Positions 12,284 to 24,436 of a DNA stretch of 34,037 bases are shown in pieces. Origin of the DNA: Kiritimatiellia bacterium (lineage in GTDB: Bacteria > Verrucomicrobiota > Kiritimatiellia > SLAD01); contig SKLK01000273.1 of assembly GCA_007123265.1 (NCBI GenBank), positions 1-34,037 on the forward strand, in the 5' to 3' direction. Under the pieces are notes generated by a model. The model ran no database searches and was not told the DNA's origin. It saw only the letters and a list, made by a program, of their open reading frames with translations. Both the position numbers and the translations under genes were made by a program. Position 1 is the first letter of the stretch, and each line of letters opens with the position of its first letter.

Positions 12284-13705
12284 CTACCCCTGCAGGTTCA
12301 TTAAGAATTCGGCATTGCTCTTGGTCTTCTTCAGTCGGTTGATCAACAACTCCATGGCCTCAACAGCCGGCACATCCTTCAAGGCCTTGCGCAAGATCCA
12401 TATCCGATTCAATTCATCCGGATGCAATAGATTTTCTTCCTTTCGCGTGCCGGACTTTTCAATATTTATGGCGGGGAAAATACGTTTGTCGACCAGATTC
12501 CGATCCAGCCCCAACTCCATATTGCCCGTTCCTTTGAACTCTTCGAAGATGACCTCATCCATACGGCTACCGGTATCCACCAGCGCCGTAGCGATAATCG
12601 TCAGACTTCCGCCGCCCTCGATGTTTCGGGCGGCACCGAAAAAGCGTTTAGGCTTATGCAAGGCATTGGCATCCACGCCCCCCGACAGGATCTTGCCGCT
12701 GTGCGGTTGCAAGGTATTATAGGCGCGAGCCAGACGTGTGATACTATCCAAAAGAATCACCGCATGCTTGCCGTTCTCCACCATGCGCTTGGCCATTTCA
12801 ATCACGATCTCCGCCACTTGAACATGGCGTTCCGGCGGCTCGTCGAATGTCGAACTCAGCACTTCCGCCTTTGTATTCCGCTGCATGTCCGTCACTTCTT
12901 CCGGCCGCTCATCAATCAAGAGGACGATGAGTTTGGCATCCGGATTATTTGCGGAAATACTATTGGCCATTTGCTGCATCAACACCGTCTTACCGGTTCG
13001 AGGCGGCGCCACAATCAAGCCGCGCTGGCCCACGCCAATCGGAGTCAACAGATCCATCACGCGCATCGAAATATTTTCCGGTGACGTTTCCAACACAAAC
13101 CGTTTATCCGGGAACAAGGGGGTCAGATGTTCAAACGGAATAAGGTTCTTGGCGGAATCCGGGGCCTTTTCATTGATGTGCTCGACCTTGAGCAGGGCGA
13201 AGAAGCGCTCCTTCTCCTTCGGTGGCCGGATTTCACCATCGATAAAGTCACCCGTCCGCAACCCGAATCGTCGGATTTGTGACGGCGACACGTAGATGTC
13301 TTCCGGGCAAGGCAAATAATTGTAGTACGGAGACCGCAGAAACCCGAAGCCATCGGGCAGAATTTCGAGGATACCTCGACCGAACAACCGTCCGTTTTGC
13401 CGCGCATTTGCCTTCAGAATCTCAAATACCAATTCGTGCTTCACCAGCGCACTCAATTCAGACAGTCCCAGACTCTCACCAAATTTTACCAGGTCAGGCA
13501 CCGTTTGAACTTGTAGCTCATGCAGCAACAGTGTCGGGCCCGGCGGCAATGGGTTCCCGTTTTCGTCGAGAACCTCCTGACGCTCCACCACCTCTTCGCC
13601 ACCCCCGTCCGGCCCATTACCCCGGTTACGGTTCTTTTGGTGATGACGACGTCCCGGACGCCCACCCGAGCGGCCACGATTTCTTGATCGTTGTTCTTCA
13701 GCCAT
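12284..13705 (-). CDS. rho: Transcription termination factor Rho
   Basis: [26 protein letters not shown], Walker [31 protein letters not shown] and [11 protein letters not shown], plus a roughly 55-aa N-terminal extension. Confidence 0.98.
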
Positions 13706-13709
13706 AGTC

Positions 13710-14318
13710 TTACTTCTCCTTTTCCAAAATTGTTTGCCAAACGGACTCGGTCTGGCGCGTTAGTTCACTTATCGTTCCTTCATTCACAATCACGTAATCG
13801 GCCCATTTCATCTTTTCCGCGACCGGCCACTGCGCGGCAAGGCGCTGTCGACACTCCTCGTGGGAGAGTCCGCGTTCCTGCAATCGTTGCCACATCACCT
13901 GCTCCGAAGACGCCACACACAACACACAATCAAAATCCTTTTCCACCCCTACCTCATAGAGCAACGGGATGATGACGCCCCGCGCCGGTTTACCACCGTC
14001 CTCCGTAACGTTCAGCCACGACCGCCAGACCTGACGAACATGCGGATGCACCAATCGATTCAGTGCTTCGCGGTCCTCCGCAGAGGCGAATACGCGTGGT
14101 CCCAAAATCTTGCGGTCGATGGTTCCATCGGCATTAAGAATCGTTTCGCCAAAATAATTTCGTACGTCCTCATAGGCTGGCCCACCCGGGGCCATCACTT
14201 CATGCGCCACTTGATCCGCGTCCAGGATCGCCACGCCCTTTCCAGCTAAGATCCGTCCCACGGCGCTTTTCCCACAGGCAATACCGCCGGTAATTCCTAC
14301 TGTAACGCTGTCTGACAA
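13710..14318 (-). CDS. coaE: Dephospho-CoA kinase
   Basis: [12 protein letters not shown]-loop, DAD, IDRKILG, LNRLVHP, IPLLYE and ADYVIVN. TTG start. Confidence 0.95.
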
Positions 14319-14338
14319 TCTCTTTTCCTCGCACGCCC

Positions 14339-16360
14339 TTACCGTTCCGGACGATACTCAAAGCCCTGATCCCGCAGGGTTGTCACCACCCGAATCACCT
14401 CTTGCGCCTGGTACTGACCGGGAAACAAGGCGACGGCTGCCCAGGCCAATCGCTCCGCCTCCTCGAGGTCACCTTCGGACAATGCCTGTCGGGCAAAGAT
14501 CGTGTGTTGATCCGCTAGTCGCTCGTCATCACGGGATCTGATCCGAAATAGCCGATACTTGGTATTACTCGCCTCTTCTTTGAACTCAAAATAGCGTGCC
14601 GCATGCGGATCGTACTCGAACAATCGTGCGGGCGCCGTTTCCGGCGGCTCCACAGCATCGACGAAATAGCGCATTTGCAGCTCCACATGGTGCGGGTAAA
14701 ACTCGCCCAACGCATACACAAAATAGTAGGCCCCATGCTGGTCTGCCCAATCCCTGAACGCTCGTTCGTCTCCCGTAAACAGCTTTCTGCCATATTGTTC
14801 AACGCGTTCTCTAATTTCCGGTGTTTCGAATTTCGGATGCAATACAATCGGACAATTTCCGTATGCCAATATCGATGCGCTCACCCCGAAGTTCGCTAGC
14901 ACCGGTTGTTCATTTCCATAGTGTCGCAGCCAATCGGTCAATTCCTGTAACTCACGATAGTACACATTGGGCCGACCCCATCGCCCCGGCTCCTCCCACA
15001 CCCGCGCCGCTTCAACCGCCCAGCCGAGGGCAAGCAGGGCGGCGAACAGATACACGGTCCAACTTCGTTGTTCCCGGGCGGAAGCCCAACAGCCGCCTAA
15101 CCATGCACATGCAAAAAGTCCCAGATAAATATGAAAGCGTACAAACAGGATATAAGCGAGGACAGACAGTATCAGGAAAAAAAAGATGTGCGCGGCTGTC
15201 GGCCTTGTCAATATACTCGAGGCATCGCGGCGTTTCCGCCAGCCCATCACGGCCAACCCGCTGGCAACCACTATGAGCACGAGAGTAGCTGGAAACAGAA
15301 TCCATGTCAATGACCATGTTGCCGAATCCAGTGCCGGCACCCACATGATGCGCTGATTAAACGTGAGTAGGGAAGGATCCATTGGTTTCACATTGAGAAA
15401 CCGGATCTTCGCGACCAGCAGTTCGGCGAAATGGCCGTAGTTCGCGCGATACCCATGGGGCACGAGCGCAAACAGTCCCCAAGGGACGGCCATGGCCGCT
15501 ATGCCCCGCCACCGGGGTGCGTGGCGCACGTGCTGCACGGCCATGCGAAGCAATAATCCATAGACCAGCAACAACGTCGGCGACATCCACAAGCCATGCG
15601 AACGATGGTAGGGTGAGAGCCATGCCACGAGGACAAGGCCGGCGGCCGGTGCCCCCCACCGCCATTGCTCCCGCAGGGCGTCGCCTGCTCCGCGAAAAAC
15701 GCGAACGCACCAAACGATCACCCACAACGCAGCGTAATACTGGATCATGTCCCAGGTCAGCAAGGCCATCCCTAAACCCAACGCGGAACCGATGACGGCC
15801 CAAATGGGACGGGGGCCGCTTTCGGACTCCCGCCAAGCGTGCAGCCAGAGGTGCGCAATCAGGAACGGAAAGGCAAAATTCTCCCGTGATATTTCGAGGC
15901 CGCTGGAACGGATCACCGTAGCCAACGACACCGCAAAGAAAGCGCCGGCAATGAAACCTGCCGAGCGTGACCGGGTCCACGCGAAGACCCATGCCGCCAC
16001 CAGCGGTGCCGACAAAGAGAACCAGACGATCATGATCCAGCGCACCCGCAGCGGCAGGGGCAACTCGCCGGGTAGTAGTCGCGCAAGGTACCCGTACACA
16101 TACTCTGCCAGCACGGTATCGGTTTTAAAGACATCAATACCATCCGGAAACTGAATCATCGGATCATGGGAAGGGATTCCTCGGCCCTCATATACGCGTT
16201 CGGTCATGCGAAATTGCAGCGCACTTTCCAACGTAAACGGCAATGCACCATCCAATCGGGCCTCATTCGCGTGCAATATAACGCCACGCGACGCGATGGC
16301 GAGCAGCCAAAGTACCAGCAATCCCGCGATCCAGAATATGTGTTGTTGTTTCGACTTCAT
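14339..16360 (-). CDS. GT-C fold polytopic glycosyltransferase, DPY19 (C-mannosyltransferase)-like rather than canonical STT3/PglB
   Basis: About 12-13 hydrophobic helices followed by a soluble C-terminal domain. Motifs FTLESALQF, DPMIQFPDG, RENFAFPF, WDMIQ, HFAELLVAK, FVRF, ELTDWLR, PIVLHPKFE...IRER and NTKYRLFRI. No WWDYG motif. Confidence 0.75.
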   Translation of the reverse strand: MKSKQQHIFWIAGLLVLWLLAIASRGVILHANEARLDGALPFTLESALQFRMTERVYEGRGIPSHDPMIQFPDGIDVFKTDTVLAEYVYGYLARLLPGELPLPLRVRWIMIVWFSLSAPLVAAWVFAWTRSRSAGFIAGAFFAVSLATVIRSSGLEISRENFAFPFLIAHLWLHAWRESESGPRPIWAVIGSALGLGMALLTWDMIQYYAALWVIVWCVRVFRGAGDALREQWRWGAPAAGLVLVAWLSPYHRSHGLWMSPTLLLVYGLLLRMAVQHVRHAPRWRGIAAMAVPWGLFALVPHGYRANYGHFAELLVAKIRFLNVKPMDPSLLTFNQRIMWVPALDSATWSLTWILFPATLVLIVVASGLAVMGWRKRRDASSILTRPTAAHIFFFLILSVLAYILFVRFHIYLGLFACAWLGGCWASAREQRSWTVYLFAALLALGWAVEAARVWEEPGRWGRPNVYYRELQELTDWLRHYGNEQPVLANFGVSASILAYGNCPIVLHPKFETPEIRERVEQYGRKLFTGDERAFRDWADQHGAYYFVYALGEFYPHHVELQMRYFVDAVEPPETAPARLFEYDPHAARYFEFKEEASNTKYRLFRIRSRDDERLADQHTIFARQALSEGDLEEAERLAWAAVALFPGQYQAQEVIRVVTTLRDQGFEYRPER

Positions 16361-16451
16361 TTCAGCATCCGCGCGTGCCTATCCGGCCGCTACGTGTGGA
16401 TGGGTACTTATCCTTCCCCCACGGGCGATTCAGGGATGTCGCTTGCGCGGG

Positions 16452-17324
16452 TCAAAAGAGGGTCGGCGAGGCGACCGCTTTAGCCAACGACTTGAACTCC
16501 ATGCGCTGATAGAAGGCATGCAGCATGCGCGCATCCGCGCGCCCCACCTGCCAATTATCCCAATCAGGATTCACCGGCAGCTCACACTGCAAGCGCGTCA
16601 TGGTCAGGTTCCGCCATACGGCTTCTTCATGTTCGCGCAAGGCGACCGCCAATTTCTCCCGTGCCACCTCATTCAGTCGCGCATATAGTTCGTCCAACGA
16701 GCCAAACGACGTCAACAATTGAGCCGCTGTCTTCGGGCCGATCCCGGGCACCCCGGGAATATTGTCCGCCACATCCCCAACCAGCGCCAACCACTCGGCC
16801 ACTTGCGATGGCTGAACACCCGTCTTGGCCTCGACCTCAGCTGGTCCCATGCGCACCTCGGACTTGGTCGGCGGAATGATGCCGATACGTCCACTGGCCA
16901 GTTGCAACATGTCCTTATCGCTGGTGGCAATCAAACTGTCGCAATCGGCATCCACCGCTTTCTGCGCAATCGTCGCCAACAGATCGTCGGCTTCGCGACC
17001 ATCCTCCATCACGTAGCCGTAGCCTGCGCCACGCAAGTACTCGTGAATCAAATCGAACTGGCCGACCAAGGGTTCAGGCATGGCCTCCCGTTGCGCCTTG
17101 TACGACGGCAGTGCGGCGATTCGTTCTGCGGCCAAGCCACCATCAAAAACGGCACAGACATGACTTGGTTTCCAGTGTTGCACCAACTGTTCTGTCATCC
17201 GGATAAAGCCATACAACGCGTTCGTCGGCACGCCGTCCCGCGTGGATAGTTCGCGAATGGCATAATAGGCTCGGTACGCAACGGCATGACCGTCGATCAG
17301 GAGTAGACATTTAGTTGAACTCAT
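16452..17324 (-). CDS. Stand-alone 5'-3' exonuclease / flap endonuclease (Pol I N-terminal domain only)
   Basis: LLIDG, PTNALYGF, VFD, YKAQR, EADD, SDKDMLQL and the H3TH motif LVGDVADNIPGVPGIGPKTA. It ends after about 290 aa with no polymerase domain. Start placed at ATG 17324. Confidence 0.92.
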   Translation of the reverse strand: MSSTKCLLLIDGHAVAYRAYYAIRELSTRDGVPTNALYGFIRMTEQLVQHWKPSHVCAVFDGGLAAERIAALPSYKAQREAMPEPLVGQFDLIHEYLRGAGYGYVMEDGREADDLLATIAQKAVDADCDSLIATSDKDMLQLASGRIGIIPPTKSEVRMGPAEVEAKTGVQPSQVAEWLALVGDVADNIPGVPGIGPKTAAQLLTSFGSLDELYARLNEVAREKLAVALREHEEAVWRNLTMTRLQCELPVNPDWDNWQVGRADARMLHAFYQRMEFKSLAKAVASPTLF

Positions 17325-17398
17325 GTGCGCAGGCTCATTCCCACCGGGCGTCACGCCCAGCGGCGTGGCGATGCGGCCTCCCGCTCGTTCGCTGTACC

Positions 17399-17451: not shown

Positions 17452-20418
17452 TTAGTCCATGGCTTGCAAGGTCATCGCATCGGCTCGATGAATCGGCTTG
17501 CCGGCCGGATCAACCAGACGCGCCGTCACGAAAATCAACAGATTTTCCTTCCGGCTGCGAGAGCCTTCCGTGCGAAACAAGCGGCCGAGTAGCGGGATAT
17601 CGCCCAAGATTGGAACTTTGTCCTTGATCGTCACCAAGCGCTCACGCATGAGACCACCCATCACCACGGTTTGCCCGTCCCAGATAACAATACTGGTCTG
17701 CACGTTACGGCTGGCAAAGACGGGTTGCGGAATATTGAAGGTAAAGTCGCGCAGGAAGAATCGGTCTGGATTGTCCGGATCACGTCCCGGAATGGAAATT
17801 TGTGAACCATACTGAATCCAATCCACCAGTTCCGCGACTTCCGGGGCCAGTGCCAAGTCAATGGTGTACCCATCCGGTCCCACGGTGGGTGTGACATTTA
17901 GAATGACACCGGTGCGACGGGTCTCAAAGTTTTCAGGCGTGACGACCGGCGGGGTGACCAATCCACCTTCCGACTGTGTAACCGGCTCTGTCACCCGGAA
18001 TTCCGTTGGGTAGATAATCTCGGTAACGACTTCGATGGATGCGTTCACGCCGCTTCGCGTGGTCACACGCGGCGCAGACAAGACATCCACGTTTCCGTTT
18101 TGCGAGAGGGCATGCAAGACCACCCGCATTTCCGGATTCGTCAAAATACTGGAAACGCTGAGGATGTTCCCCAAGAAGGCCGCGTCCTCCATCCCTGCGC
18201 GGACCGGCTCGACGCCACCCGAGGTTTGTGCAAAGAAGCGTTGTCCGGCACTGACATTGCCGGCATCCACCTGTACGCGTTCACGGCCACCAAACGGTGC
18301 GCTGCCCCGGCGTTGCAGGAATTCGTAGTTGTCGGTAAACAACCACTGCAAGCCCAATTCACGCATATCCTCTTCAGCCACTTCAACGAAGCGCGCCTCG
18401 ATTTCAACTTGGCTCGGGACAACGTTAAGTTGTGAAAGGATTCGCTCAAAGGTCTCCAGGTTTTCCGGCGTGTTGGCCACGATCAACTGGCTAATCGTCG
18501 GATTATAGCTAATCGAGGTCCCCACGGGGAATGGGACGCCTGCCCCTTCAAAAAAGGCCTTCACATCGCCGCCACGGGTACCGGATGGGGCCCGGCGTGT
18601 ACCAAATTCCTGGGCGCCACCGAAGAAGCCTCCTGTGGGCGCGGCTTCCTCGCGCTCCTGAACCACATCCAAAAAGGAAGGTTGAACCGGATACAGTCGA
18701 GTAACCACCCGCCCCACGTCGGCGATGCCCGATGGGGTAATCACCACTACACTATCTTCAATCCGGAAACGCAGACCGGCCACTTCCGTAATGAAGCGAA
18801 CGGCTTCCATCAGCGAAATCCGGCGCAGATTTAGGGTAATCGAGGGGACACCCGAGCCCCCAGCAGGCGCGGCCGGTGCGGCATCCCATTCATCGCCCCA
18901 CGGATCGTCCATTGCACTCGGTGTGCGGCGCTCCGCGGGCGCAGCGGACACGCCTTCGGGCATACTCAAATTCAAGATGATATTGACGCCTTCCCCTTCT
19001 GGGTCGGCGGCCTCACTGGCATCGCGCAGGAAGGAAACCACATCACGAATATTGGCCTGCCGGAATTCGATGCGGGGAATGATGATGGATTCCATCCGCT
19101 CTTGCAGCCGCCGGGATGGGGTGACCAGATCCTGGGGACCGGGCCGGGCCAAGTCCTCGGGAAGAACCGCTTCGCCGCGGTGGGGCGGCGTCCATGCTTC
19201 GCGCACATCGCGCATCATTTGCTCCGTCGTTGTTCGCCGCAGGACGTCGGACGCCCGGCGCTGATCTTCGGCTATGCGGCGCAAGTAGCGCATGGCGTCG
19301 GTATTGTATGGATCGCGAATCAGTACGCTTTCAAAAAGCATTTCGGATCGGTTGAGTTCTCCGGCCTCATAGTAGGCGCGGGCCTCCTGCAGAGTGTCCT
19401 CAATTGTACGGCGCTTTTCGACGATCTCGGGCCGCCGTTCGATGGGCACAGGTTGCGCGGCTTCGGCTTCGCGACGCGCTTCCTCACGGTTGATGCGGCG
19501 CTCCAGCAAGGCCAGTCCTCGGTGCGACGGTGAGAGCTCGCGGGTACGTGCCAGGTTTCGTCGCGCTTCACGCAGGTCGCCATCGTCACGATAGATTTGC
19601 TGCGCAATGCGGAAATGGGCTTCGGCCAATCCCCGGCGGGCATTTTCCCGCTCGTCCTGACGGGCGGGGCGATCCGGTATACGTTCAAGGGCCCGGGTAA
19701 AGGCGTCTCTCGCCGCCCGGTAGTCCTCCCGATCAAGGGCCCGGTGAGCGGCGTCCAGACTCTGCAGCCCATCCACTTCCGCCGCTTGCCGCCGGACTTC
19801 TTCCTGGGCCGCCAAATCAGCGGCTACGCGATCCGCCTCGGTCCTGACGCGCGGCTCTGGTTGTGGTTCCGGAACGTCTTCCACTTCATCGATGTCCTGG
19901 ATCACGTCGACCGCCGGATCCTCCAATGGAGGCACGTCTTCTACTGGCTCTTCCTCTTCTGGGAACAGGAAATCGTCCATCCAGTCTTCGGGCGCTTCCT
20001 CCACATCGTCCGGCCACTCATCCACGTCTACATCGGTGTCTGGCACATCCTCGGGAACCGTTTCCGGGGGTACCGGGTCGTCCTCTTCATCATCCCAAAA
20101 CCAATCGTCCTCATCGCTTTCGAACAGGTCATCGAAATCAAAATCATCATCTTCCGGCGGCGCCACCGGAGGGGCGACCGGTGCTGCGGGTTCGGGGACT
20201 TCTTCGCTGACGGGCTCGACGTCAGGCACGGGCTCCGCTGTGGGTTCCGGTTCGGGCTCCGGTTCGGGCTCCGGTTGCGGCTCAGGCGCGGGTTCGGCTT
20301 CTTCGACATCAATATCGAACAAGGCATCAAAATCGAAGTCGTCAAGGGCATGGCTTGTGCCGGGCCAAATCAGAACCTGGACCAAAAATACGACGATCAA
20401 GCTATTGATGACTCTCAT
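17452..20418 (-). CDS. Secretin (PilQ/GspD superfamily; Amuc_1098-like) with acidic N-terminal extension and TPRs
   Basis: Signal peptide (..GTSHA), about 170 aa of D/E/P-rich low complexity, TPR helices, IEFRQANIRDVV N domain, QLIVANTPENLE, QVEIEARFVEV, LSAPRVTT, GVILNVTPTV, DGQTVVMGGL, KVPILGDIPLLGRLF and LLIFVTARLV. AGGAGA RBS. Confidence 0.95.
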   Translation of the reverse strand: MRVINSLIVVFLVQVLIWPGTSHALDDFDFDALFDIDVEEAEPAPEPQPEPEPEPEPEPTAEPVPDVEPVSEEVPEPAAPVAPPVAPPEDDDFDFDDLFESDEDDWFWDDEEDDPVPPETVPEDVPDTDVDVDEWPDDVEEAPEDWMDDFLFPEEEEPVEDVPPLEDPAVDVIQDIDEVEDVPEPQPEPRVRTEADRVAADLAAQEEVRRQAAEVDGLQSLDAAHRALDREDYRAARDAFTRALERIPDRPARQDERENARRGLAEAHFRIAQQIYRDDGDLREARRNLARTRELSPSHRGLALLERRINREEARREAEAAQPVPIERRPEIVEKRRTIEDTLQEARAYYEAGELNRSEMLFESVLIRDPYNTDAMRYLRRIAEDQRRASDVLRRTTTEQMMRDVREAWTPPHRGEAVLPEDLARPGPQDLVTPSRRLQERMESIIIPRIEFRQANIRDVVSFLRDASEAADPEGEGVNIILNLSMPEGVSAAPAERRTPSAMDDPWGDEWDAAPAAPAGGSGVPSITLNLRRISLMEAVRFITEVAGLRFRIEDSVVVITPSGIADVGRVVTRLYPVQPSFLDVVQEREEAAPTGGFFGGAQEFGTRRAPSGTRGGDVKAFFEGAGVPFPVGTSISYNPTISQLIVANTPENLETFERILSQLNVVPSQVEIEARFVEVAEEDMRELGLQWLFTDNYEFLQRRGSAPFGGRERVQVDAGNVSAGQRFFAQTSGGVEPVRAGMEDAAFLGNILSVSSILTNPEMRVVLHALSQNGNVDVLSAPRVTTRSGVNASIEVVTEIIYPTEFRVTEPVTQSEGGLVTPPVVTPENFETRRTGVILNVTPTVGPDGYTIDLALAPEVAELVDWIQYGSQISIPGRDPDNPDRFFLRDFTFNIPQPVFASRNVQTSIVIWDGQTVVMGGLMRERLVTIKDKVPILGDIPLLGRLFRTEGSRSRKENLLIFVTARLVDPAGKPIHRADAMTLQAMD
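20243..20297 (-). repeat. Pro-Glu (PE)n coding tandem repeat in the secretin N-terminus
   Basis: The 12-bp unit TCCGGTTCGGGC occurs at 20246-20257 and 20258-20269, with degenerate flanking copies. The region encodes EPAPEPQPEPEPEPEPEP. Confidence 0.8.
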
Positions 20419-20514
20419 CCGAATCTCCTTCTGCCAACGATAACACGCTCCCTATAAGTCGCGCCTACCCAATTTGCTTCCATCCTTATGAGCATGGAAT
20501 CGGTGTATTACCCA

Positions 20515-21615
20515 TTATTGGCCCATTTGCTCCAATAAAGCTTCAAAATCAAAATCAACTGCAGGCGCACCCCCGGTCGTACCCGCTGCCCGGGGCCGAT
20601 CCTGCGGCCGTGCTTGCTCCACAACCACTTCCTGGTTCCGATTTTCGTCCAGAATTAAAACGGTATCCCTGCGTATGTCAACGACTTTGTACGGCTGGTT
20701 CATGAGCGTTATCTCAGAACCTTCGCGCACACGGAAGATGGAGTCGTCGACGAGGAAGACCAATTCAGCCACACGTTCGTCAATGCGCACATCCGTGTCC
20801 ACGCGCAATTCAATCTGGCGACCATCGGCTCGCTCCAACTTCAAGACCGATCCATCAATGGGGCCCAAGGGTCCGGGACGGGTGCGGCGCTCGAAATCAA
20901 CCAGGCGATAGCCTTCCACCATTTCCCCGAGCGCAACGAAAAAGGTCCGGTCCCGCTCGCGCAGGTTAAGCTGGAAGCGATAGTCGCCTTCTGCGATTTC
21001 GTGAACCCCTTGGAACCGTAGCCGGAAAGGAATCTCGCGAATCTGGCGCCAACGCAGTTTCAGTGCATGCGACGGATGGTCCTCCGCATCCACGGGACTG
21101 GTACCAGCCTCAAACTCTTCGCGCACGGTAAACCCGTCACCGTCCAAGTCCCGCTCACCAATGTCGGGGTCCAGCGGATCCAACCCGAAACCGGTGAGCC
21201 ATTGATCCGGGATTCCGTCACCGGTGGTATCCCGCTCGGCTTGGGTCGGTTGCGGGTATTGGGTCCAAGGACACACTTCCGCATCATAGGGTATCGGCGT
21301 CGGCACATCGGGATTCACACTAACCACGCGCAGCTCACTGACCATCAGGGCATGGTCTCGAGCTTCCATTTGAGGTGGCTGCTCCAACCGCCGGGCAAAG
21401 GCACGAAACTGGGAGATATCGATGGCTTCGTAATGCTGATGCCCGACATCGATCCGATCCCAACTGGTATCGGTCAGCGCGCGCTGAGCCTTCTGGTTTT
21501 GGAGCAGCAGGAATAGCGCGGAGGCCAAAAGAACGACCAAGACCGCAACAATCGCAACTTTGTCGTAGTGCACTTTCAACCAAGATCGCTCTTTGGTTCG
21601 TGTCGCTGCGCTCAT
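20515..21615 (-). CDS. Amuc_1099-like pilus-system protein with Ca-binding thrombospondin type-3-like repeats
   Basis: HYDK followed by a TM helix, DTTGDGIPDQW, DLDGDGFTVREEFEAGTSP, FQLN and TFFVALGE. It lies directly upstream of the secretin (the PilP slot). Confidence 0.7.
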   Translation of the reverse strand: MSAATRTKERSWLKVHYDKVAIVAVLVVLLASALFLLLQNQKAQRALTDTSWDRIDVGHQHYEAIDISQFRAFARRLEQPPQMEARDHALMVSELRVVSVNPDVPTPIPYDAEVCPWTQYPQPTQAERDTTGDGIPDQWLTGFGLDPLDPDIGERDLDGDGFTVREEFEAGTSPVDAEDHPSHALKLRWRQIREIPFRLRFQGVHEIAEGDYRFQLNLRERDRTFFVALGEMVEGYRLVDFERRTRPGPLGPIDGSVLKLERADGRQIELRVDTDVRIDERVAELVFLVDDSIFRVREGSEITLMNQPYKVVDIRRDTVLILDENRNQEVVVEQARPQDRPRAAGTTGGAPAVDFDFEALLEQMGQ

Positions 21616-22598
21616 GATTCCTGGTCCTCTTCTGCGGCGGCATGTTTGAAGTGATACACGTCTACCTCCATACGCACACGCACACGTTCACGACCAGCCA
21701 CCACGCGATCTTCGTGGAATCGGGGCTGCGCAATCTCCTCCGCGCGGGGCCTGTCCGCGCCCGGTCGTTCGGATTCCCGCGGGGCCAACCGCGCCGCTAG
21801 CCGGGCCGAGGCGGAGGTGCCGCCCAATCCCATTTCATTGCGCAATTCCAAGCTGCGCACCACCATCAATACGGGACTGGCCACCATTCGATTGAGTGCC
21901 TCACGCAGGGCCTCATCACTGGCCATAAAGGAAAGGGTATAGCGCTCACGCGTATAGAGTCCCTCGACACCATCCGGTTCAATCCGGATTTCAGGCTCGA
22001 CGACACGCTCGGTCACGCCCCTGCGGGTGCCGGTATCAGCCAGCTCACGCTGCGTTCGCTCCACATCGAAAACTTCCCGGTCCACACTGGTGAGCTCATG
22101 GATTCCCGCGTTGATCAACAGCACACTGATCCGCTCAACCATTTGCAACTGCGACATTAAGCGCGGCACATGCTCCTGCCGCGGCAAATTCCCTGCGGCA
22201 TATTGACCAAAACCAAATTCAGCCGCCTCAGGAATTCGGACGTTGTTACGTGCCGCCAACTCCCGGATTCGCCGCATGGTTCGTTCCCGGTGTGGCGGAA
22301 ATGCCACCCGCTCTATCTCGGCTGCCTCGGCTTGGTGTGCAGACAGAGCCGACAATAGAGAGCCACGATAATTTTGCAATTGTTCCAAGTTGGCTTCCAG
22401 CCGCGCTACATTTTCATTCGACGGGAAAGGTGCCCGCCGATGCAATTGCTCAAGCACCCGCAAATTCCGCTGCAGATCGTCTTGAATCCGCGCATACTCG
22501 CGGCTGGACCGGATCAGTAGAAACACCACGATCAACGCCAACACCAAGGCGATGCCACCGCCCACCACTAAAACGGTATGTTTTTTGAAAAAGGTCAT
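21612..22598 (-). CDS. Amuc_1100-like pilus-system protein (PilO-position)
   Basis: N-terminal TM, a coiled coil, PFPSNEN, FGFGQY, and a C-terminal ferredoxin-like segment (YTLSFMASDEALREALN...VVRSLELRNE) ending VAGRERVRVRMEVD. It lies between the PilM/N fusion and the Amuc_1099-like gene with 4-bp overlaps. Confidence 0.72.
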   Translation of the reverse strand: MTFFKKHTVLVVGGGIALVLALIVVFLLIRSSREYARIQDDLQRNLRVLEQLHRRAPFPSNENVARLEANLEQLQNYRGSLLSALSAHQAEAAEIERVAFPPHRERTMRRIRELAARNNVRIPEAAEFGFGQYAAGNLPRQEHVPRLMSQLQMVERISVLLINAGIHELTSVDREVFDVERTQRELADTGTRRGVTERVVEPEIRIEPDGVEGLYTRERYTLSFMASDEALREALNRMVASPVLMVVRSLELRNEMGLGGTSASARLAARLAPRESERPGADRPRAEEIAQPRFHEDRVVAGRERVRVRMEVDVYHFKHAAAEEDQES

Positions 22599-24307
22599 AG
22601 TTCTATGGGCTCTTCCAGCACCAACATCATCCCGAATTCACGCACATAGGTATTCGGCGCAACCGGGGGCAGCAGGTCAATATCGGAACTATCGGTAAAA
22701 TGAGGCAATTCCCGCAGACTGGTTCGCAAGGCATAGACGGGCCGCTCGTCCGGAATTTTGTCCGTGTAGCCCAGACCGGATATACGGATCCGGTTAATAT
22801 TTCCCAGCTCAACCGTCGCGCTACGATCGCCCCCCCGCGCGGCACGCCCACCGGTGGCAGGATCGGGCTCCCGGGTAATGCGCTCCCGCTGCGGGACGAC
22901 GGATGTCAACCACATGCCATCCGGCAATAAGGCATTGACGTCGTCAAGAATCTCCACCCACCGCCCGGCGTTTCGGATCAATGCATGCACTTGATCAATT
23001 TGCTCGGTGACATCCGCGATCTCCTGCTCCGGCAACTGCATTTGCCGCTCTATATGCTGGAGATTACGCACCCGCTCCTCGACCCGGGATAGCCGTTGCT
23101 CGCCCAAACGGGCCAACGTGTGGAAATAGAAGGTCCACACCAGCAGAACAAAGACAAAACCAAACGCCGCCGCCAGCAGGATCGGATGCTTCTTGCGGAA
23201 TTGTTTTTCGGAAACAACGCGGGGCGGCATCAGGTCGATTTCGATCGGACAGGTCAACACGCGCCGCAACGCCAGGCCCACCACTTCGCCCAGCATGTGC
23301 GCGTCGCGACCGATCTCCTCCGCAGAGATGTCGTCGGCCACGGCCACATTCATGAACGGATTGAGATACTCGACCTCGGCCTTGAGCTTGTCCTTTAAGA
23401 AAACGTCGGTGTACGGGATAACCGAGGTGCCTCCGGTCAACAAAATGCGCTTGGGCTGCGACCCGTCTTGCTGTCCGCGGTAAAAGTTGATGCTACGATT
23501 GATCTCCGCATGCAAGCGGGTCATCACACTACGCACACTCTTGGATACCTTGTCCGCCACCTCACCGGACGGGCTTTCATACGCCCCACCCCACGCGACA
23601 AACGCCTGGGCTTTCTTCATGTCTTCGGCATCCGCAAAAGACAATTCGAACTCGCGCATGACTTGCTGCGTAATCGCATTGCCGCCGACCGGAATGCTTC
23701 GGCTAAAGACGCGATTCGCTTCAAGGAAAATCAAGTCCGTCGAGCGCGCACCCATATCGATGATCAAGGTGCAATCGCTAAGATCATCGTAATTGTAGCG
23801 TACGGCATTATACAGCGCCATGGGCGCGACATCGATCAGGTCCGGGAAAAGGCCGGCCTGCTCAACCGCTTCGGTCAATTCGGTGATGATTTCGCCCTTG
23901 ATCGCGGCCAACATCACATCGAGATCGCCTTCGGTGCCGCCGATCAATTGATAATCCCAAACGACTTCTTCGATGGGAAAAGGCACGTTCTGCTGGGCCT
24001 CGTATTCGACGATCTGTTTGACCTTGTCTTCGTCGACCGGCGGCAACTTGACGAAACGGGAAAAAACGGATTGTCCGGAAACCGAAATAAGCACCGGTCC
24101 CGGCTTGATGTCGTACTCGGCCAACATCTCTTGAATCGTGCTGACGATGTAAACATTCCGATCACCGTCGGAATGGGGATCCAATCCCAGCGGGCTGATC
24201 GCATGCTTGACGAGCTCGATCCCGCCGGATTTTAACGGGATGAATTCGGCCATTTTCAGGCCGCTTGCGCCTATGTCCAATGCCAGAATGCGGTCAGTCT
24301 TTAGCAT
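22595..24307 (-). CDS. pilM: PilM-PilN fusion (Amuc_1101-like type IV pilus assembly protein)
   Basis: Actin/FtsA-like motifs LDIGASGLK, EAQQNVPFPIEEVVWDY, IDMGARST, GGNAIT, EINRSINFY, LTGG and VGLALR. These are followed by the PilN-type IDLMP motif, a TM helix, a coiled coil and LPDGMWLTS. Start placed at ATG 24307. Confidence 0.92.
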   Translation of the reverse strand: MLKTDRILALDIGASGLKMAEFIPLKSGGIELVKHAISPLGLDPHSDGDRNVYIVSTIQEMLAEYDIKPGPVLISVSGQSVFSRFVKLPPVDEDKVKQIVEYEAQQNVPFPIEEVVWDYQLIGGTEGDLDVMLAAIKGEIITELTEAVEQAGLFPDLIDVAPMALYNAVRYNYDDLSDCTLIIDMGARSTDLIFLEANRVFSRSIPVGGNAITQQVMREFELSFADAEDMKKAQAFVAWGGAYESPSGEVADKVSKSVRSVMTRLHAEINRSINFYRGQQDGSQPKRILLTGGTSVIPYTDVFLKDKLKAEVEYLNPFMNVAVADDISAEEIGRDAHMLGEVVGLALRRVLTCPIEIDLMPPRVVSEKQFRKKHPILLAAAFGFVFVLLVWTFYFHTLARLGEQRLSRVEERVRNLQHIERQMQLPEQEIADVTEQIDQVHALIRNAGRWVEILDDVNALLPDGMWLTSVVPQRERITREPDPATGGRAARGGDRSATVELGNINRIRISGLGYTDKIPDERPVYALRTSLRELPHFTDSSDIDLLPPVAPNTYVREFGMMLVLEEPIEL

Positions 24308-24345
24308 GATCTGCGTATCTTTACCGGTTCGTTTTATGCTCTCTG

Positions 24346-24436
24346 CCTGCATCAACAGTTCGCCTCGCGGCGAGTGACCTGTCTATGCAGGACCGATGAG
24401 TATCAGACCATACCCCATTTCCATTCGCGGGGGCAA
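24346..24436 (-). promoter_or_regulatory. Putative promoter and structured 5' leader of the pilus cluster
   Basis: TTGCCC (24436-24431), 18 bp, TATGGT (24412-24407), followed by a 46-nt stem-loop (24391-24346) capped by a GCGA tetraloop. Confidence 0.45.

What the first reader, a model, noticed from the sequence alone, without database searches (positions are those of the whole stretch)
14339..16360. Bacterial DPY19-like enzyme: candidate protein tryptophan C-glycosyltransferase
Seen in the sequence: a 673-aa polytopic membrane protein with a soluble C-terminal domain (STT3/DPY19 architecture). It has no WWDYG motif (the equivalent slot reads VLANFG) and no obvious DxD/DHH oligosaccharyltransferase motif. 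Compared with metazoan DPY19 motifs recalled from memory, the matches are co-linear: FTLE45SALQF with FRTEMGLYY (which carries the catalytic Glu), DPMIQFPDGIDV with DxxTEYPxxIN, SR159ENFAFPF with LRESFSYPF, WDMIQ with WQFAQ, HFAELLVAK with HIxNLLxSKF, FVR408F with IMRLK, ELTDWLR with ELLxWIK, PIVLH508PKFETPEIRER with PIVNHPHYEDxxLRAR, and NTKYRLFRI with NSVYRVL. Established knowledge: DPY19 enzymes C-mannosylate Trp in WxxW/WxxC using Dol-P-Man, a modification described in animals and apicomplexans and, to my knowledge, not demonstrated on bacterial proteins. Inference: this may be a periplasmic Trp C-glycosylation (or related) system using a polyprenyl-phosphate sugar, and automatic pipelines could mislabel it as STT3 or hypothetical.
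Basis: partly seen in the sequence, partly recalled or inferred. Interest (0 to 1): 0.9.

Follow-up and report, generated by a model that had tools for sequence, protein, structure and literature searches.

The report
Bacterial DPY19-type membrane glycosyltransferase
This gene encodes a genuine bacterial relative of the animal enzyme that attaches mannose to tryptophan in proteins, a family that reviews describe as eukaryote-only, and it keeps the catalytic residues, so bacteria of this group may carry out the same rare protein modification.

Summary
The ORF is real (14339-16360, minus strand, 673 aa). It is a true DPY19-family GT-C glycosyltransferase, not STT3, PMT or ArnT. Pfam Dpy19 is its only significant family (40.5 bits against a cut-off of 27.2). 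46 of 47 diverse relatives hit Dpy19 and none hits STT3 or PMT. C. elegans DPY-19 is the only GT-C enzyme among the strong PDB matches (profile E = 8.8e-33).

Only nine columns are invariant across the bacterial family. Seven of them are identical in the nematode enzyme: E45/E71 (catalytic), R151/R211, P165/P225, W203/W262, H310/H375, R408/R471 and R517/R584. The peptide-gripping loop is the best-conserved segment.

The family is large (742 clusters at 50% identity; 111 of 401 sampled genomes of the phylum) and sits among core genes.

Not shown: the acceptor and the sugar. No TSR domains were found, and the gene does not co-occur with a DPMS-like synthase or with the adjacent secretin cluster. 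One hint: exported proteins of this genome carry W-[G/A/S/P]-x-W 27 times against 12.2 expected, and a Dpy19-negative relative shows no excess. The one candidate acceptor followed up did not track the enzyme.

Verdict: the homology is solid; Trp C-glycosylation is plausible (about 0.5) but untested.

The parts
14339..16360 (-). DPY19-like GT-C glycosyltransferase gene, 673 aa
   Evidence: ORF. Pfam Dpy19 40.5 bits against cut-off 27.2. Best PDB relative is 7zlg_A.
16226..16228 (-). Codon of Glu45, the counterpart of catalytic Glu71 of C. elegans DPY-19 (first periplasmic loop, motif PFTLESA)
   Evidence: Aligned E-to-E. Invariant in 48/48 and 47/47 sequences.
15881..15910 (-). R151-x6-S-R159-E160, the counterpart of the DPY19 'Rx6LRE' motif of loop EL2 (Ce R211...R219-E220)
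   Evidence: Alignment; motif definition in PMC6801728 section 5. In A2: R151 47/47, E160 42/47, R159 29/47.
15752..15754 (-). Codon of Trp203, the counterpart of Ce Trp262 (H-bond to the donor phosphate)
   Evidence: invariant 47/47.
15137..15139 (-). Codon of Arg408, the counterpart of Ce Arg471 (salt bridge to the donor phosphate). H410 and I411 that follow correspond to K473 and L474 of the Trp(+3) pocket.
   Evidence: alignment. In A2: R 47/47; the K473 position is H20 E8 Q6 and others; the L474 position is V38.
14804..14851 (-). P504-R519, the counterpart of the Ce active-site loop around His575-Arg584 (grips the acceptor peptide; the Pro576 carbonyl and Tyr578 contact Trp(0))
   Evidence: In A2: P509 40/47, aromatic at 511 47/47, E512 46/47, R517 47/47. 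Role of the loop from PMC10154233 sections 8-10.
14561..14998 (-). C-terminal soluble domain (about residues 455-600), the counterpart of the luminal 'dome' of DPY-19; inferred to face the periplasm
   Evidence: Aligned to Ce residues 417-686. No hydrophobic segment after residue 454.
14381..14548 (-). Short TPR-like tail (about residues 605-660), not aligned to C. elegans DPY-19; longer TPR arrays occur in other family members
   Evidence: TPR_14 E = 0.13 in this protein. Designed-TPR PDB hits at profile positions 600-650. 13/47 relatives have significant TPR_2.
16452..17354 (-). 5'-3' exonuclease gene, upstream neighbour on the same strand (context only)
   Evidence: Pfam 5_3_exonuc_N and 5_3_exonuc; conserved neighbour.
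13710..14318 (-). coaE (dephospho-CoA kinase), 20 bp downstream on the same strand (context only)
   Evidence: Pfam CoaE. An RNA-library contig spans 14001-14536.
17452..24355 (-). PilM / orfA / orfB / secretin cluster, conserved next to the gene within the class (context only; not shown to be functionally coupled)
   Evidence: Pfam Secretin and PilM_2. Synteny. orfB is also present in Dpy19-negative families.

Best explanation
The gene encodes a bona fide bacterial member of the DPY19 family of GT-C glycosyltransferases (Pfam PF10034; the family of the eukaryotic tryptophan C-mannosyltransferases).

Inferred mechanism, by homology with C. elegans DPY-19: a polytopic inner-membrane enzyme whose active site and C-terminal dome face the periplasm. 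It takes a polyprenyl-phosphate monosaccharide, probably undecaprenyl-phosphate-mannose, from the membrane. R408, R151 and W203 hold the phosphate leaving group. E45 acts as the general acid/base. The conserved loop P504-R519 grips an unfolded exported polypeptide. One hexose is transferred to the acceptor, most likely to C2 of a tryptophan in a W-[small]-x-W-like sequon. The short TPR tail may dock a partner or substrate.

Shown here: family membership, conservation of the catalytic, donor-binding and peptide-loop residues, wide distribution in PVC bacteria, and a core-genome location. Inferred: topology, donor lipid and sugar, protein acceptor, and Trp C-linkage.
For: - Family membership: Pfam Dpy19 is the only significant family, E = 1.4e-10, 40.5 bits against a 27.2 cut-off. 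46/47 diverse relatives hit Dpy19 and 0/47 hit STT3, PMT or PMT_2.
- Solved relatives: 7zlg_A (DPY-19) is the only hit for the single sequence. It scores E = 4.9e-12 with profile A1 and E = 8.8e-33 with profile A2, covering chain residues 60-355 and 417-686.
- Invariant residues: the family-wide invariant columns in 47 sequences down to 21% identity are E45, R151, P165, W203, H310, P326, W340, R408 and R517. Seven of these are identical in DPY-19 (E71, R211, P225, W262, H375, R471, R584). Mutating E71, R211 or R471 abolishes or nearly abolishes activity, and W262 binds the donor phosphate (PMC10154233 sections 8-9).
- Acceptor site: Trp(0)-contacting positions are kept, P576 as P in 40/47 and Y578 as an aromatic in 47/47. 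The L474 'floor', which permits Trp at +3, is V in 38/47.
- Fold: the ESM Atlas model of this exact protein (pTM 0.87) is nearest to bacterial Dpy19 clusters (TM 0.85-0.86), then to STT3/AglB (TM 0.73-0.79).
- Donor: a DPMS-like synthase exists in this genome (best PDB hit 5mlz, E = 7.3e-31), plus four further polyprenyl-P-sugar-synthase-like GT2 enzymes.
- Sequon statistics: exported soluble proteins of this genome carry WxxW 56 times against 41.2 +/- 6.4 expected (2/100 shuffles reach it), while other Trp-Trp spacings are at or below 1.0. The whole excess lies in W-[GASP]-x-W: 27 against 12.2 +/- 3.5, 0/200 shuffles. These sites are spread over 23 proteins; the 56 WxxW sites lie in 42 proteins and 36 paralogue groups. 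Controls are flat: W-[other]-x-W 29 against 28.4; the mirror pattern 11 against 12.0; cytoplasmic proteins 40 against 31.9; the Dpy19-negative relative G023 9 against 10.8 in exported proteins.
- Expression: RNA-library contigs cover parts of the gene.
Against: - No biochemical evidence exists for any bacterial member.
- TSR domains, the classical eukaryotic substrates, were not found in this 89%-complete genome (the TSP_1 control rang in no genome).
- The Trp(+3) pocket residue K473 is His in this clade and variable across the family (H20, E8, Q6 and others).
- The EL5 aromatics Y395 and F401 have no reliable counterpart (L332 and I338 in a low-confidence alignment stretch).
- The EL5-dome disulfide said to be conserved in CMT enzymes has no conserved cysteines here, and the Pro after the EL6 Arg is missing (against the sequence).
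- The DPMS-like synthase does not co-occur with the gene. It is present in Dpy19-negative families (f4 10/10, f5 17/18, f14 17/17, f16 8/8) and was found with this query in only 2 of the 57 Dpy19-positive genomes outside the class.
- The motif statistic rests on home-made gene calls, a crude export predictor, and one positive against one negative genome. Three of the 27 sites are ordinary thioredoxin FWAxWC motifs.
- The one candidate acceptor followed up keeps its WPx[W/Y] motifs in 4/4 Dpy19-negative genomes.
- 20 of the 27 sites lie in proteins with no detectable orthologue in G023, and of the 6 alignable sites 2 are kept.
Confidence: 0.5

Rival explanations
1. The enzyme is an active DPY19-family enzyme using a polyprenyl-phosphate sugar, but its acceptor is not tryptophan C2. 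It would glycosylate another residue (Ser/Thr/Tyr O-linked, or Trp N1), or a non-protein acceptor such as an envelope lipid, lipopolysaccharide or peptidoglycan component. The conserved residues would then serve only donor handling and general acid/base chemistry, which are common to GT-C enzymes.
For: - The invariant residues shared with DPY-19 are mainly donor or catalytic ones (E, two R, W), and an EL1 carboxylate and an EL6 Arg also occur in STT3 (PMC6801728 section 5).
- The acceptor-pocket positions K473, Y395 and F401 are not conserved or not alignable.
- No TSR domains were found, and the candidate acceptor motif does not track the enzyme.
- The gene sits among core genes and, in other classes, directly after rpoN in 5 of 6 loci, a position compatible with an envelope-housekeeping role.
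- Two PMT_2/ArnT-like GT-Cs in the genome show that lipid-linked monosaccharides are used for other purposes as well.
Against: - The peptide-gripping loop is the best-conserved segment between nematode and bacteria, including the aromatic at the Y578 position in 47/47 sequences and P576 as P in 40/47.
- TPR tails in 13/47 members suggest protein contacts.
- The W-[small]-x-W excess is specific to exported proteins of the Dpy19-positive genome.
Confidence: 0.35
2. It is an STT3/PglB/AglB-type oligosaccharyltransferase that transfers a lipid-pyrophosphate-linked oligosaccharide to Asn, and is merely mis-scored as Dpy19.
For: The overall fold resembles STT3: TM 0.73-0.79 to archaeal and eukaryotic STT3 clusters in the ESM Atlas. 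The published DPY-19 structure also notes an STT3-like variable module (PMC10154233). Profile A2 gave one PDB hit named 'dolichyl-diphosphooligosaccharide--protein glycotransferase' (8i9p_Lh, E = 4.3e-12, profile positions 4-285), which I did not examine at residue level.
Against: No Pfam STT3 hit in this protein or in any of the 47 relatives. No WWDYG motif. The nearest structural neighbours are Dpy19 clusters (TM 0.85-0.86). The DPY-19 PDB match is far stronger (E = 8.8e-33). The DPY19-specific Rx6[LS]RE motif and the HPx[YF]E loop are present.
Confidence: 0.04
3. It is a catalytically inactive or moonlighting membrane protein, for example a structural partner of the adjacent secretin/PilM machinery, that merely retains the DPY19 fold.
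For: Tight synteny with the PilM-orfA-orfB-secretin cluster within the class: a secretin orthologue lies beside the gene in 72 of 100 fetched loci. Human DPY19L2 is best known for a structural role in sperm (recalled, not from a call).
Against: The catalytic Glu and both phosphate-binding Arg are invariant over sequences down to 21% identity, which indicates selection on catalysis. The secretin-cluster gene orfB is also present in families that lack the gene (f5 18/18, f14 16/17). In other classes the gene is not next to a secretin.
Confidence: 0.04

Closest known systems
C. elegans DPY-19 and human DPY19L1-L4 (tryptophan C-mannosyltransferases; Pfam PF10034; CAZy GT98 per PMC6801728 Table 1)
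   Same: Same Pfam family above cut-off. Near full-length co-linear alignment. Identical catalytic Glu, both phosphate-binding Arg, the phosphate-binding Trp, the Rx6[LS]RE motif and the HPx[Y/F]E...IRER active-site loop. No STT3-type WWDYG motif.
   Different: - Bacterial, so presumably an inner-membrane enzyme facing the periplasm and using a bacterial polyprenol rather than dolichol (inferred).
- About 20-25% identical at best.
- A TPR tail is added.
- No conserved EL5-dome disulfide.
- The EL5 sequence is entirely different and has its own invariant residues, P326 and W340.
- K473 is replaced by His or is variable.
- No Pro after the EL6 Arg.
- No TSR-domain substrates in the genome.
- Activity untested.
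STT3 / PglB / AglB oligosaccharyltransferases (GT66)
   Same: GT-C fold with an STT3-like helix arrangement and a C-terminal extracytoplasmic domain: TM 0.73-0.79 to STT3 clusters. An EL1 carboxylate and an EL6 Arg are shared features (PMC6801728 section 5).
   Different: No Pfam STT3 match in any of 47 members. No WWDYG. No metal-binding DxD/ExD-type motif evident (reading). DPY-19 itself is metal-independent (PMC10154233).
TMTC1-4 (GT105) protein O-mannosyltransferases
   Same: They are listed as GT-C enzymes using a dolichol-linked donor (PMC6801728 Table 1). From my own recall, not from a call, they are fused to C-terminal TPR repeats that help select protein substrates, an architecture analogous to the DPY19-plus-TPR arrangement here.
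   Different: A different sequence family (no TMTC, PMT or PMT_2 Pfam hit). They carry out O-linkage to Ser/Thr. The TPR array is much shorter in this protein.
ArnT / PMT_2-type bacterial GT-C enzymes (lipid A or glycan modification from undecaprenyl-phosphate sugars)
   Same: Bacterial inner-membrane GT-Cs that use a polyprenyl-phosphate monosaccharide made by a small GT2 synthase. Two such PMT_2 proteins and several such synthases exist in this genome.
   Different: No PMT_2 match for this protein or for its 47 relatives. ArnT acceptors are lipids or glycans, whereas the conserved peptide-binding loop here points to a polypeptide.

Membership tests
DPY19 / Pfam PF10034 (GT98-type C-mannosyltransferases) | Scores above the curated Pfam gathering threshold | tested here: met
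   40.5 bits against 27.2, residues 70-523 on profile positions 67-563 of 653. 46/47 diverse relatives match, best E = 1.2e-27.
DPY19 / Pfam PF10034 | Closest solved structure by sequence is DPY-19, over most of its length | tested here: met
   7zlg_A is the only hit for the single sequence. Profile A2: E = 8.8e-33, chain residues 60-355 and 417-686.
DPY19 / Pfam PF10034 | Catalytic carboxylate in EL1 (Ce Glu71; Asp tolerated) | tested here: met
   E45 aligns with E71. E in 48/48 and 47/47 sequences.
DPY19 / Pfam PF10034 | Rx6LRE motif in EL2 (essential per PMC6801728); its first Arg is Ce R211 | tested here: met
   R151-x6-S-R159-E160. In A2: R151 47/47, E160 42/47, R159 29/47; Leu is replaced by Ser in this protein.
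DPY19 / Pfam PF10034 | Donor-phosphate ligands Arg471 and Trp262 | tested here: met
   R408 47/47 and W203 47/47.
DPY19 / Pfam PF10034 | Conserved Pro in TM12 after the EL6 Arg | tested here: not met
   Ce has R471...P478. The bacterial consensus after R408 has no Pro.
DPY19 / Pfam PF10034 | Active-site loop His575-Arg584, with Pro576 and Tyr578 contacting Trp(0) | tested here: met
   H508-P509-K510-F511-E512...R517. In A2: P 40/47, aromatic 47/47, E 46/47, R 47/47.
DPY19 / Pfam PF10034 | Trp(+3) pocket: Arg211, Lys473 and a Leu474 floor | tested here: inconclusive
   R151 is invariant. The K473 position is His in this clade (45/48 in A1) and variable family-wide (H20, E8, Q6 and others). The L474 position is V in 38/47.
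DPY19 / Pfam PF10034 | EL5 aromatics Tyr395 and Phe401 lining the Trp(0) groove | tested here: inconclusive
   The HMM alignment places L332 and I338 there, but that stretch is gapped and of low confidence. The bacterial EL5 has its own invariant W340 and an F/Y at position 334 in 44/47. A structural superposition is needed.
DPY19 / Pfam PF10034 | Disulfide tethering EL5 to the luminal dome (stated to be conserved in CMTs) | tested here: not met
   No invariant or near-invariant Cys in A1. This protein has Cys only at positions 218, 418, 424 and 503.
DPY19 / Pfam PF10034 | 13-helix GT-C fold with a C-terminal extracytoplasmic dome | tested here: inconclusive
   The ESM Atlas model (pTM 0.87) is nearest to Dpy19 clusters (TM 0.85-0.86) and STT3 clusters (TM 0.73-0.79).
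DPY19 / Pfam PF10034 | Transfers mannose from polyprenyl-P-Man to C2 of Trp in WxxW/C | not testable with these tools
   Indirect hints only: a W-[GASP]-x-W excess in exported proteins and a DPMS-like synthase in the genome.
STT3 / PglB / AglB (GT66) | Pfam STT3 match and a WWDYG motif in the C-terminal domain | tested here: not met
   No STT3 hit in this protein or in 47 relatives. No STT3 found in the genome. No WWD in the sequence.
PMT / PMT_2 (GT39, ArnT-like GT83) | Pfam PMT or PMT_2 match | tested here: not met
   None in this protein or in 47 relatives. The genome's two PMT_2 proteins are elsewhere, on contigs C107 and C33.

The most novel reading that the evidence does not exclude
PVC-group bacteria (Kiritimatiellia, other Verrucomicrobiota and Lentisphaerota, Candidatus Auribacterota, possibly Omnitrophota) possess an ancient, widespread protein tryptophan C-glycosylation system. 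A periplasm-facing DPY19 enzyme would modify W-[small]-x-W sequons in exported proteins as they emerge from the membrane. This would be the first C-glycosylated proteome in prokaryotes. The patchily distributed eukaryotic DPY19 enzymes (holozoans and alveolates) would then trace back to such a bacterial lineage, or share an ancestor with it.
Probability: 0.35. Interest if true: 0.9.

Novelty: new variant of a known kind. Interest (0 to 1): 0.7.

Why it matters
Tryptophan C-mannosylation is a carbon-carbon protein glycosylation. Two of the papers I read state that it, or C-ManT-like sequences, are restricted to metazoans and their unicellular relatives plus alveolates (PMC6801728 and PMC8724618, passages read).

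A large, catalytically intact bacterial DPY19 family would have three consequences:
- It makes the existence of this modification in prokaryotes directly testable.
- It offers an evolutionary source, or a sister group, for the eukaryotic enzymes.
- It could provide small, possibly bacterially expressible enzymes for installing C-glycosyl-Trp on recombinant proteins and for mechanistic work on enzymatic C-C glycosyl transfer.

If the acceptor turns out to be something else, the family still defines an uncharacterised core envelope glycosyltransferase of PVC bacteria.

Tried and rejected
- N-terminal fragment (residues 1-140) alone against the PDB: no hit. The E45/E71 alignment appeared only with the diverse profile.
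- NCBIfam: nothing significant.
- Donor by co-occurrence: the DPMS-like synthase is near-universal in the class whether or not Dpy19 is present, and was rarely found outside it with this query. Five Dpy19-positive genomes outside the class have only 29-35%-identical small GT2 enzymes. The sugar is unassigned.
- Functional coupling to the secretin cluster: rejected as obligate, because orfB occurs in Dpy19-negative families.
- TSR domains: none found. The TSP_1 search rang in no control genome, so that negative is weak.
- Conserved WxxW in syntenic neighbours (PilM, orfA, orfB, secretin, VWA): none.
- Multi-WxxW exported proteins: mostly without a Pfam family.
- Candidate acceptor C23:4876-6351 (two WPIW motifs): the motifs are equally conserved in Dpy19-negative genomes.
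- Site-by-site comparison with G023: 20 of 27 sites have no orthologue there, so the test is underpowered.
- Promoter and terminator scan around the gene: at chance level.
- RNA-library contigs cover only parts of the gene (no depth over 15311-15912 or 16214-16514), and DNA carry-over is not excluded.
- The A2-profile PDB hit 8i9p_Lh was not examined at residue level.
- Eukaryotic DPY19 sequences could not be obtained as stored proteins, so no bacteria-eukaryote tree was built.
- Supplementary files of the papers (for example the DPY19 logos in Figure S1 of PMC6801728) were not seen.


Full report
**1. Observation**

The window has an ATG-to-stop ORF of 673 codons at 14339..16360 on the minus strand. 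It has hydrophobic segments up to about residue 454 and a 219-residue tail without them. It contains no WWD(YG) motif (read). All nine are reproduced by computed HMMER alignments to the solved C. elegans DPY-19 chain 7zlg_A.

One assignment needs correcting. The counterpart of Arg211 is R151. R159-E160 match R219-E220, the end of the published 'Rx6LRE' motif (PMC6801728 section 5, read).

**2. What it is**

- Against Pfam-A the only significant family is Dpy19 (PF10034): E = 1.4e-10, 40.5 bits against a gathering score of 27.2, residues 70-523 on profile positions 67-563 of 653. No STT3, PMT or PMT_2 model appears even at E up to 10.
- NCBIfam has nothing significant.
- Against all PDB sequences, the single protein hits only DPY-19 (E = 8.5e-4).
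- A profile of 48 close relatives (A1) hits it at E = 4.9e-12 over chain residues 188-685.
- A profile of 47 diverse relatives down to 21% identity (A2) hits it at E = 8.8e-33 (116.7 bits) over chain residues 60-355 and 417-686.
- The better-scoring PDB entries are designed TPR proteins that match only the C-terminal tail.
- One further GT-C-named entry (8i9p_Lh, E = 4.3e-12, profile positions 4-285) was listed. I did not examine it.
- Scanned individually, 46 of the 47 diverse relatives match Pfam Dpy19 (best E = 1.2e-27). None matches STT3, PMT or PMT_2. 13 of 47 have significant TPR_2 repeats.
- The ESM Atlas holds a model of this exact protein (pTM 0.87). Its nearest structural neighbours are two bacterial clusters in which 62-68% of members carry Dpy19 (TM 0.85-0.86). 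Archaeal and eukaryotic STT3/AglB clusters follow (TM 0.73-0.79). This agrees with the published remark that DPY-19 has an STT3-like variable module (PMC10154233, passages).

**3. Active site**

I read sections 8, 9 and 10 of the DPY-19 structure paper, plus further passages. It reports the following:
- Glu71 is the catalytic acid/base. [quoted passage not shown]
- Arg471 and Trp262 bind the donor phosphate.
- Arg211 and Lys473 sandwich Trp(+3), and Leu474 forms the floor of that pocket.
- Tyr395, Phe401, Tyr578 and the Pro576 carbonyl hold Trp(0).
- The loop His575-Arg584 grips the peptide and activates the donor.

In the diverse alignment A2 only nine columns are invariant: E45, R151, P165, W203, H310, P326, W340, R408 and R517. 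By the alignments, seven of them are identical in DPY-19: E71, R211, P225, W262, H375, R471 and R584. The other two lie in EL5, where the alignment is unreliable.

A column census gives:

| DPY-19 position | Residues in A2 (47 sequences) |
|---|---|
| P576 | P 40 |
| Y578 | F 32, Y 13, W 2 |
| E579 | E 46 |
| H577 | K 45 |
| L474 | V 38 |
| K473 | H 20, E 8, Q 6 and others (H in 45/48 of the close set A1) |

The catalytic and donor machinery and the Trp(0)-contacting loop are therefore conserved. The +3 pocket is only partly conserved.

Features not conserved:
- The EL5-dome disulfide has no conserved Cys here.
- The Pro that follows the EL6 Arg is missing.
- The 'ExE' just after TM1 reads D-G-A in this protein (alignment).

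**4. Distribution and context**

- The word-indexed search found 270 relatives. The best 120 are 42-60% identical, apart from the window's own protein. Most carry a precomputed PF10034 hit. Most are unnamed or 'hypothetical protein'. One is named 'C-mannosyltransferase dpy-19 family protein [Verrucomicrobia bacterium]' and one 'MFS family permease'.
- The exhaustive search of 1.84 billion representatives found 742 clusters at E <= 0.001, 596 at <= 1e-10 and 227 at <= 1e-30.
- In 401 genomes sampled from the phylum, 111 have a match (59 of 185 genera). That is 53 of the 132 other genomes of the window's class and 57 of 268 outside it. Families f4 (0/10), f5 (0/18), f14 (0/17) and f16 (0/8) have none.
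- None of 14 control genomes matches PF10034.
- Record titles of the best 80 species-representative loci are all MAGs of Kiritimatiellia, Verrucomicrobiota, Lentisphaerota or 'PVC group'. The exceptions are one Omnitrophota and one 'Rhodocyclaceae', the latter possibly mis-binned.
- Two distant representatives belong to Candidatus Auribacterota.
- One copy lies in a closed 3.2-Mb genome named 'Lentisphaerota bacterium ZTH'.

The window itself is core genome: PriA, a helicase, TPR proteins, an S41 protease, TsaD, a VWA protein, Rho, CoaE, the gene, a 5'-3' exonuclease, a secretin/PilM cluster, a SpoU methylase, M42 and M50 peptidases, ClpX, ClpP and trigger factor.

Within the class the order is PilM-orfA-orfB-secretin-(exonuclease)-DPY19-(CoaE-Rho-VWA). 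Among the 100 fetched loci, a secretin orthologue lies beside the gene in 72, orfB in 65 and VWA in 50, with many loci cut by contig ends. In six loci from other classes the gene directly follows rpoN in five.

The secretin-cluster gene orfB is also present in Dpy19-negative families (f5 18/18, f14 16/17; not found in f4, 0/10). I therefore read the adjacency as conserved ancestral synteny, not as coupling.

**5. Donor**

The genome has 14 GT2 matches. Five are small polyprenyl-phosphate-sugar-synthase-like proteins, none reaching an NCBIfam equivalog cut-off.

One of them (contig C66, 255 aa) has the Pyrococcus dolichol-monophosphate-mannose synthase as its best PDB hit (5mlz, E = 7.3e-31). 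This DPMS-like gene is present in 129 of the 132 other class genomes, including the Dpy19-negative families. With this query it was found in only 14 of 268 genomes outside the class, and only 2 of those 14 are among the 57 Dpy19-positive ones. Five Dpy19-positive genomes outside the class have small GT2 enzymes that are 29-35% identical to it.

The other GT-C candidates in the genome are two PMT_2 proteins. No PMT or STT3 was found in this 89%-complete assembly.

A lipid-linked monosaccharide donor is therefore plausible. Mannose is an inference from homology: Glu71 was proposed to exclude glucose in DPY-19.

**6. Acceptor**

No TSP_1 or TSP1_spondin domain was found (the TSP_1 control rang nowhere). 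No syntenic neighbour has a conserved WxxW.

I called genes crudely (longest non-overlapping ORFs weighted by GC3) and predicted export with a simple N-terminal hydrophobicity rule. Within-protein shuffles served as the null model.

- In 282 predicted exported soluble proteins of this genome, WxxW is the only Trp-Trp spacing in excess: 56 against 41.2 +/- 6.4 (2/100 shuffles reach it). The other six spacings have ratios of 0.67-0.97. Cytoplasmic proteins give 109 against 104.4.
- Membrane proteins show a generic excess at several spacings in both genomes.
- In a closed Dpy19-negative genome of the same class (G023, 2.4 of 2.95 Mb), 223 exported soluble proteins give 35 against 37.5 +/- 6.7.
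- DPY-19 prefers small residues at +1. In this genome 27 of the 56 sites have G, A, S or P at +1 (background 0.29), against 9 of 35 in G023.

| Set | Pattern | Observed | Expected |
|---|---|---|---|
| G000 exported | W-[GASP]-x-W | 27 | 12.2 +/- 3.5 (z = 4.2; 0/200 shuffles) |
| G000 exported | W-[other]-x-W | 29 | 28.4 |
| G000 exported | mirror W-x-[GASP]-W | 11 | 12.0 |
| G000 cytoplasmic | W-[GASP]-x-W | 40 | 31.9 |
| G023 exported | W-[GASP]-x-W | 9 | 10.8 |
| G023 cytoplasmic | W-[GASP]-x-W | 21 | 22.0 |

(All rows.)

The 56 WxxW sites lie in 42 proteins and 36 paralogue groups. The 27 small-(+1) sites lie in 23 proteins. Three of the 27 are ordinary thioredoxin FWAxWC motifs.

Results against the hypothesis:
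- The best candidate is a conserved 491-aa exported protein with two WPIW motifs. It has orthologues in 190 of 401 genomes, including Dpy19-negative families. Its WPx[W/Y] motifs are as well kept in four Dpy19-negative genomes (motif 1 is WPxW in 4/4) as in 27 positive ones.
- 20 of the 27 sites lie in proteins with no detectable orthologue in G023. Of the six alignable sites, two keep WxxW, one keeps only the first Trp and three keep neither.
- A replicate in a second positive genome could not be fetched.

The motif signal is thus a real but fragile hint.

**7. Expression**

The gene is held in full by four DNA runs labelled as salt-lake, soda-lake or alkaline-sediment metagenomes, which may be the source of the assembly. 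Contigs from one RNA library of the same sample cover 14001-14536, which spans the 3' end of the gene and the start of coaE, and 14879-15056. The secretin gene is covered throughout. DNA carry-over cannot be excluded.

**8. Literature**

[quoted passage not shown] PMC9338275 speaks of co-evolution of TSR domains and DPY19 at the emergence of metazoans (passage). In the 2026 review PMC12990085, the passages found for 'bacteria' concern lectins and C-Man-Trp degradation only.

Seven searches produced no listing or passage describing a prokaryotic DPY19. 'PF10034' matched only Plasmodium gene identifiers. I did not read those papers in full, and supplements were closed.

**9. Verdict**

Membership in the DPY19 family is established by sequence, with most defining residues met and three secondary features not met. 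The most likely function is a periplasmic, polyprenyl-phosphate-hexose-dependent glycosyltransferase acting on unfolded exported proteins. Trp C-glycosylation is the leading reading (about 0.5), and a different acceptor is the main rival (about 0.35).

It is a new variant of a known kind: a bacterial, TPR-tailed, TSR-independent branch of a family that the reviews I read describe as eukaryote-only. Databases already flag the domain, but nobody appears to have studied it.

Noticed in passing
window 17452-20418 (-): The 988-aa secretin has an N-terminal stretch of about 190 residues that is extremely acidic and Pro/Glu/Asp-rich (PEPEPE... and DDDFDFDD runs). Both DNA and RNA contig depth spike about 100-fold at 20127-20427, so this low-complexity coding stretch recruits contigs from many organisms.
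   Followed up: no
window 20515-24355 (-): The PilM homologue is 586 aa, with a PilM_2 domain in residues 26-365 and a long extension. It is followed by two conserved ORFs (328 and 366 aa) with no significant Pfam family (one weak sub-threshold HBM hit). orfB orthologues occur in 189 of 401 genomes of the phylum. These are probably unrecognised PilN/O/P-like parts of a PVC secretin machine.
   Followed up: partly
L028, L029, L031, L032, L033 (loci from other classes of the phylum): In 5 of 6 loci outside the window's class, the Dpy19-like gene lies directly downstream of rpoN (sigma-54) on the same strand.
   Followed up: partly
G290:C1:878712-880607; G173:C6:44148-46355; G182:C59:9402-11696: In one nearly closed genome the Dpy19-like copy is interrupted by several in-frame stops, so it may be a pseudogene. 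In two others the match is split into two pieces separated by about 250 bp within one open frame, which suggests an insertion in the middle of the protein.
   Followed up: no
G000 contig C66:5471-6238 (locus L004): A DPMS-like polyprenyl-phosphate-mannose synthase (best PDB hit 5mlz) is present in 129 of the 132 other genomes of the class, but was found in only 14 of 268 genomes of the rest of the phylum at E <= 1e-35. It is a class-wide trait whose acceptor pathway is unknown.
   Followed up: partly
G000 contig C23:4876-6351 (loci L119, L242): A conserved 491-aa exported protein without a Pfam family carries two copies of a [F/Y]-x-[L/M]-W-P-[I/L/F]-[W/Y] motif. The motifs are kept across 31 orthologues from different families.
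   Followed up: yes
G000 contigs C188:2369-7669, C266:14192-16960, C257:33-5024: Three very large exported proteins share a W-G-L-W motif. Two of them share the longer context S-W-G-L-W-A-N-S-G, which suggests an undescribed repeat or domain.
   Followed up: no
window 12284-13705 (-): Rho has an Arg/Gly/Asn-rich low-complexity N-terminal extension of about 60 residues before the Rho_N domain.
   Followed up: no
PDB entry 8i9p chain Lh: The diverse family profile A2 matched, at E = 4.3e-12 over profile positions 4-285, a 935-residue chain named 'dolichyl-diphosphooligosaccharide--protein glycotransferase'. Profile A1 did not match it. It may reflect the shared GT-C N-terminal module or a compositional artefact.
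   Followed up: no
protein P0091: One public copy of this family is named 'MFS family permease' by its source, which is a likely mis-annotation.
   Followed up: no
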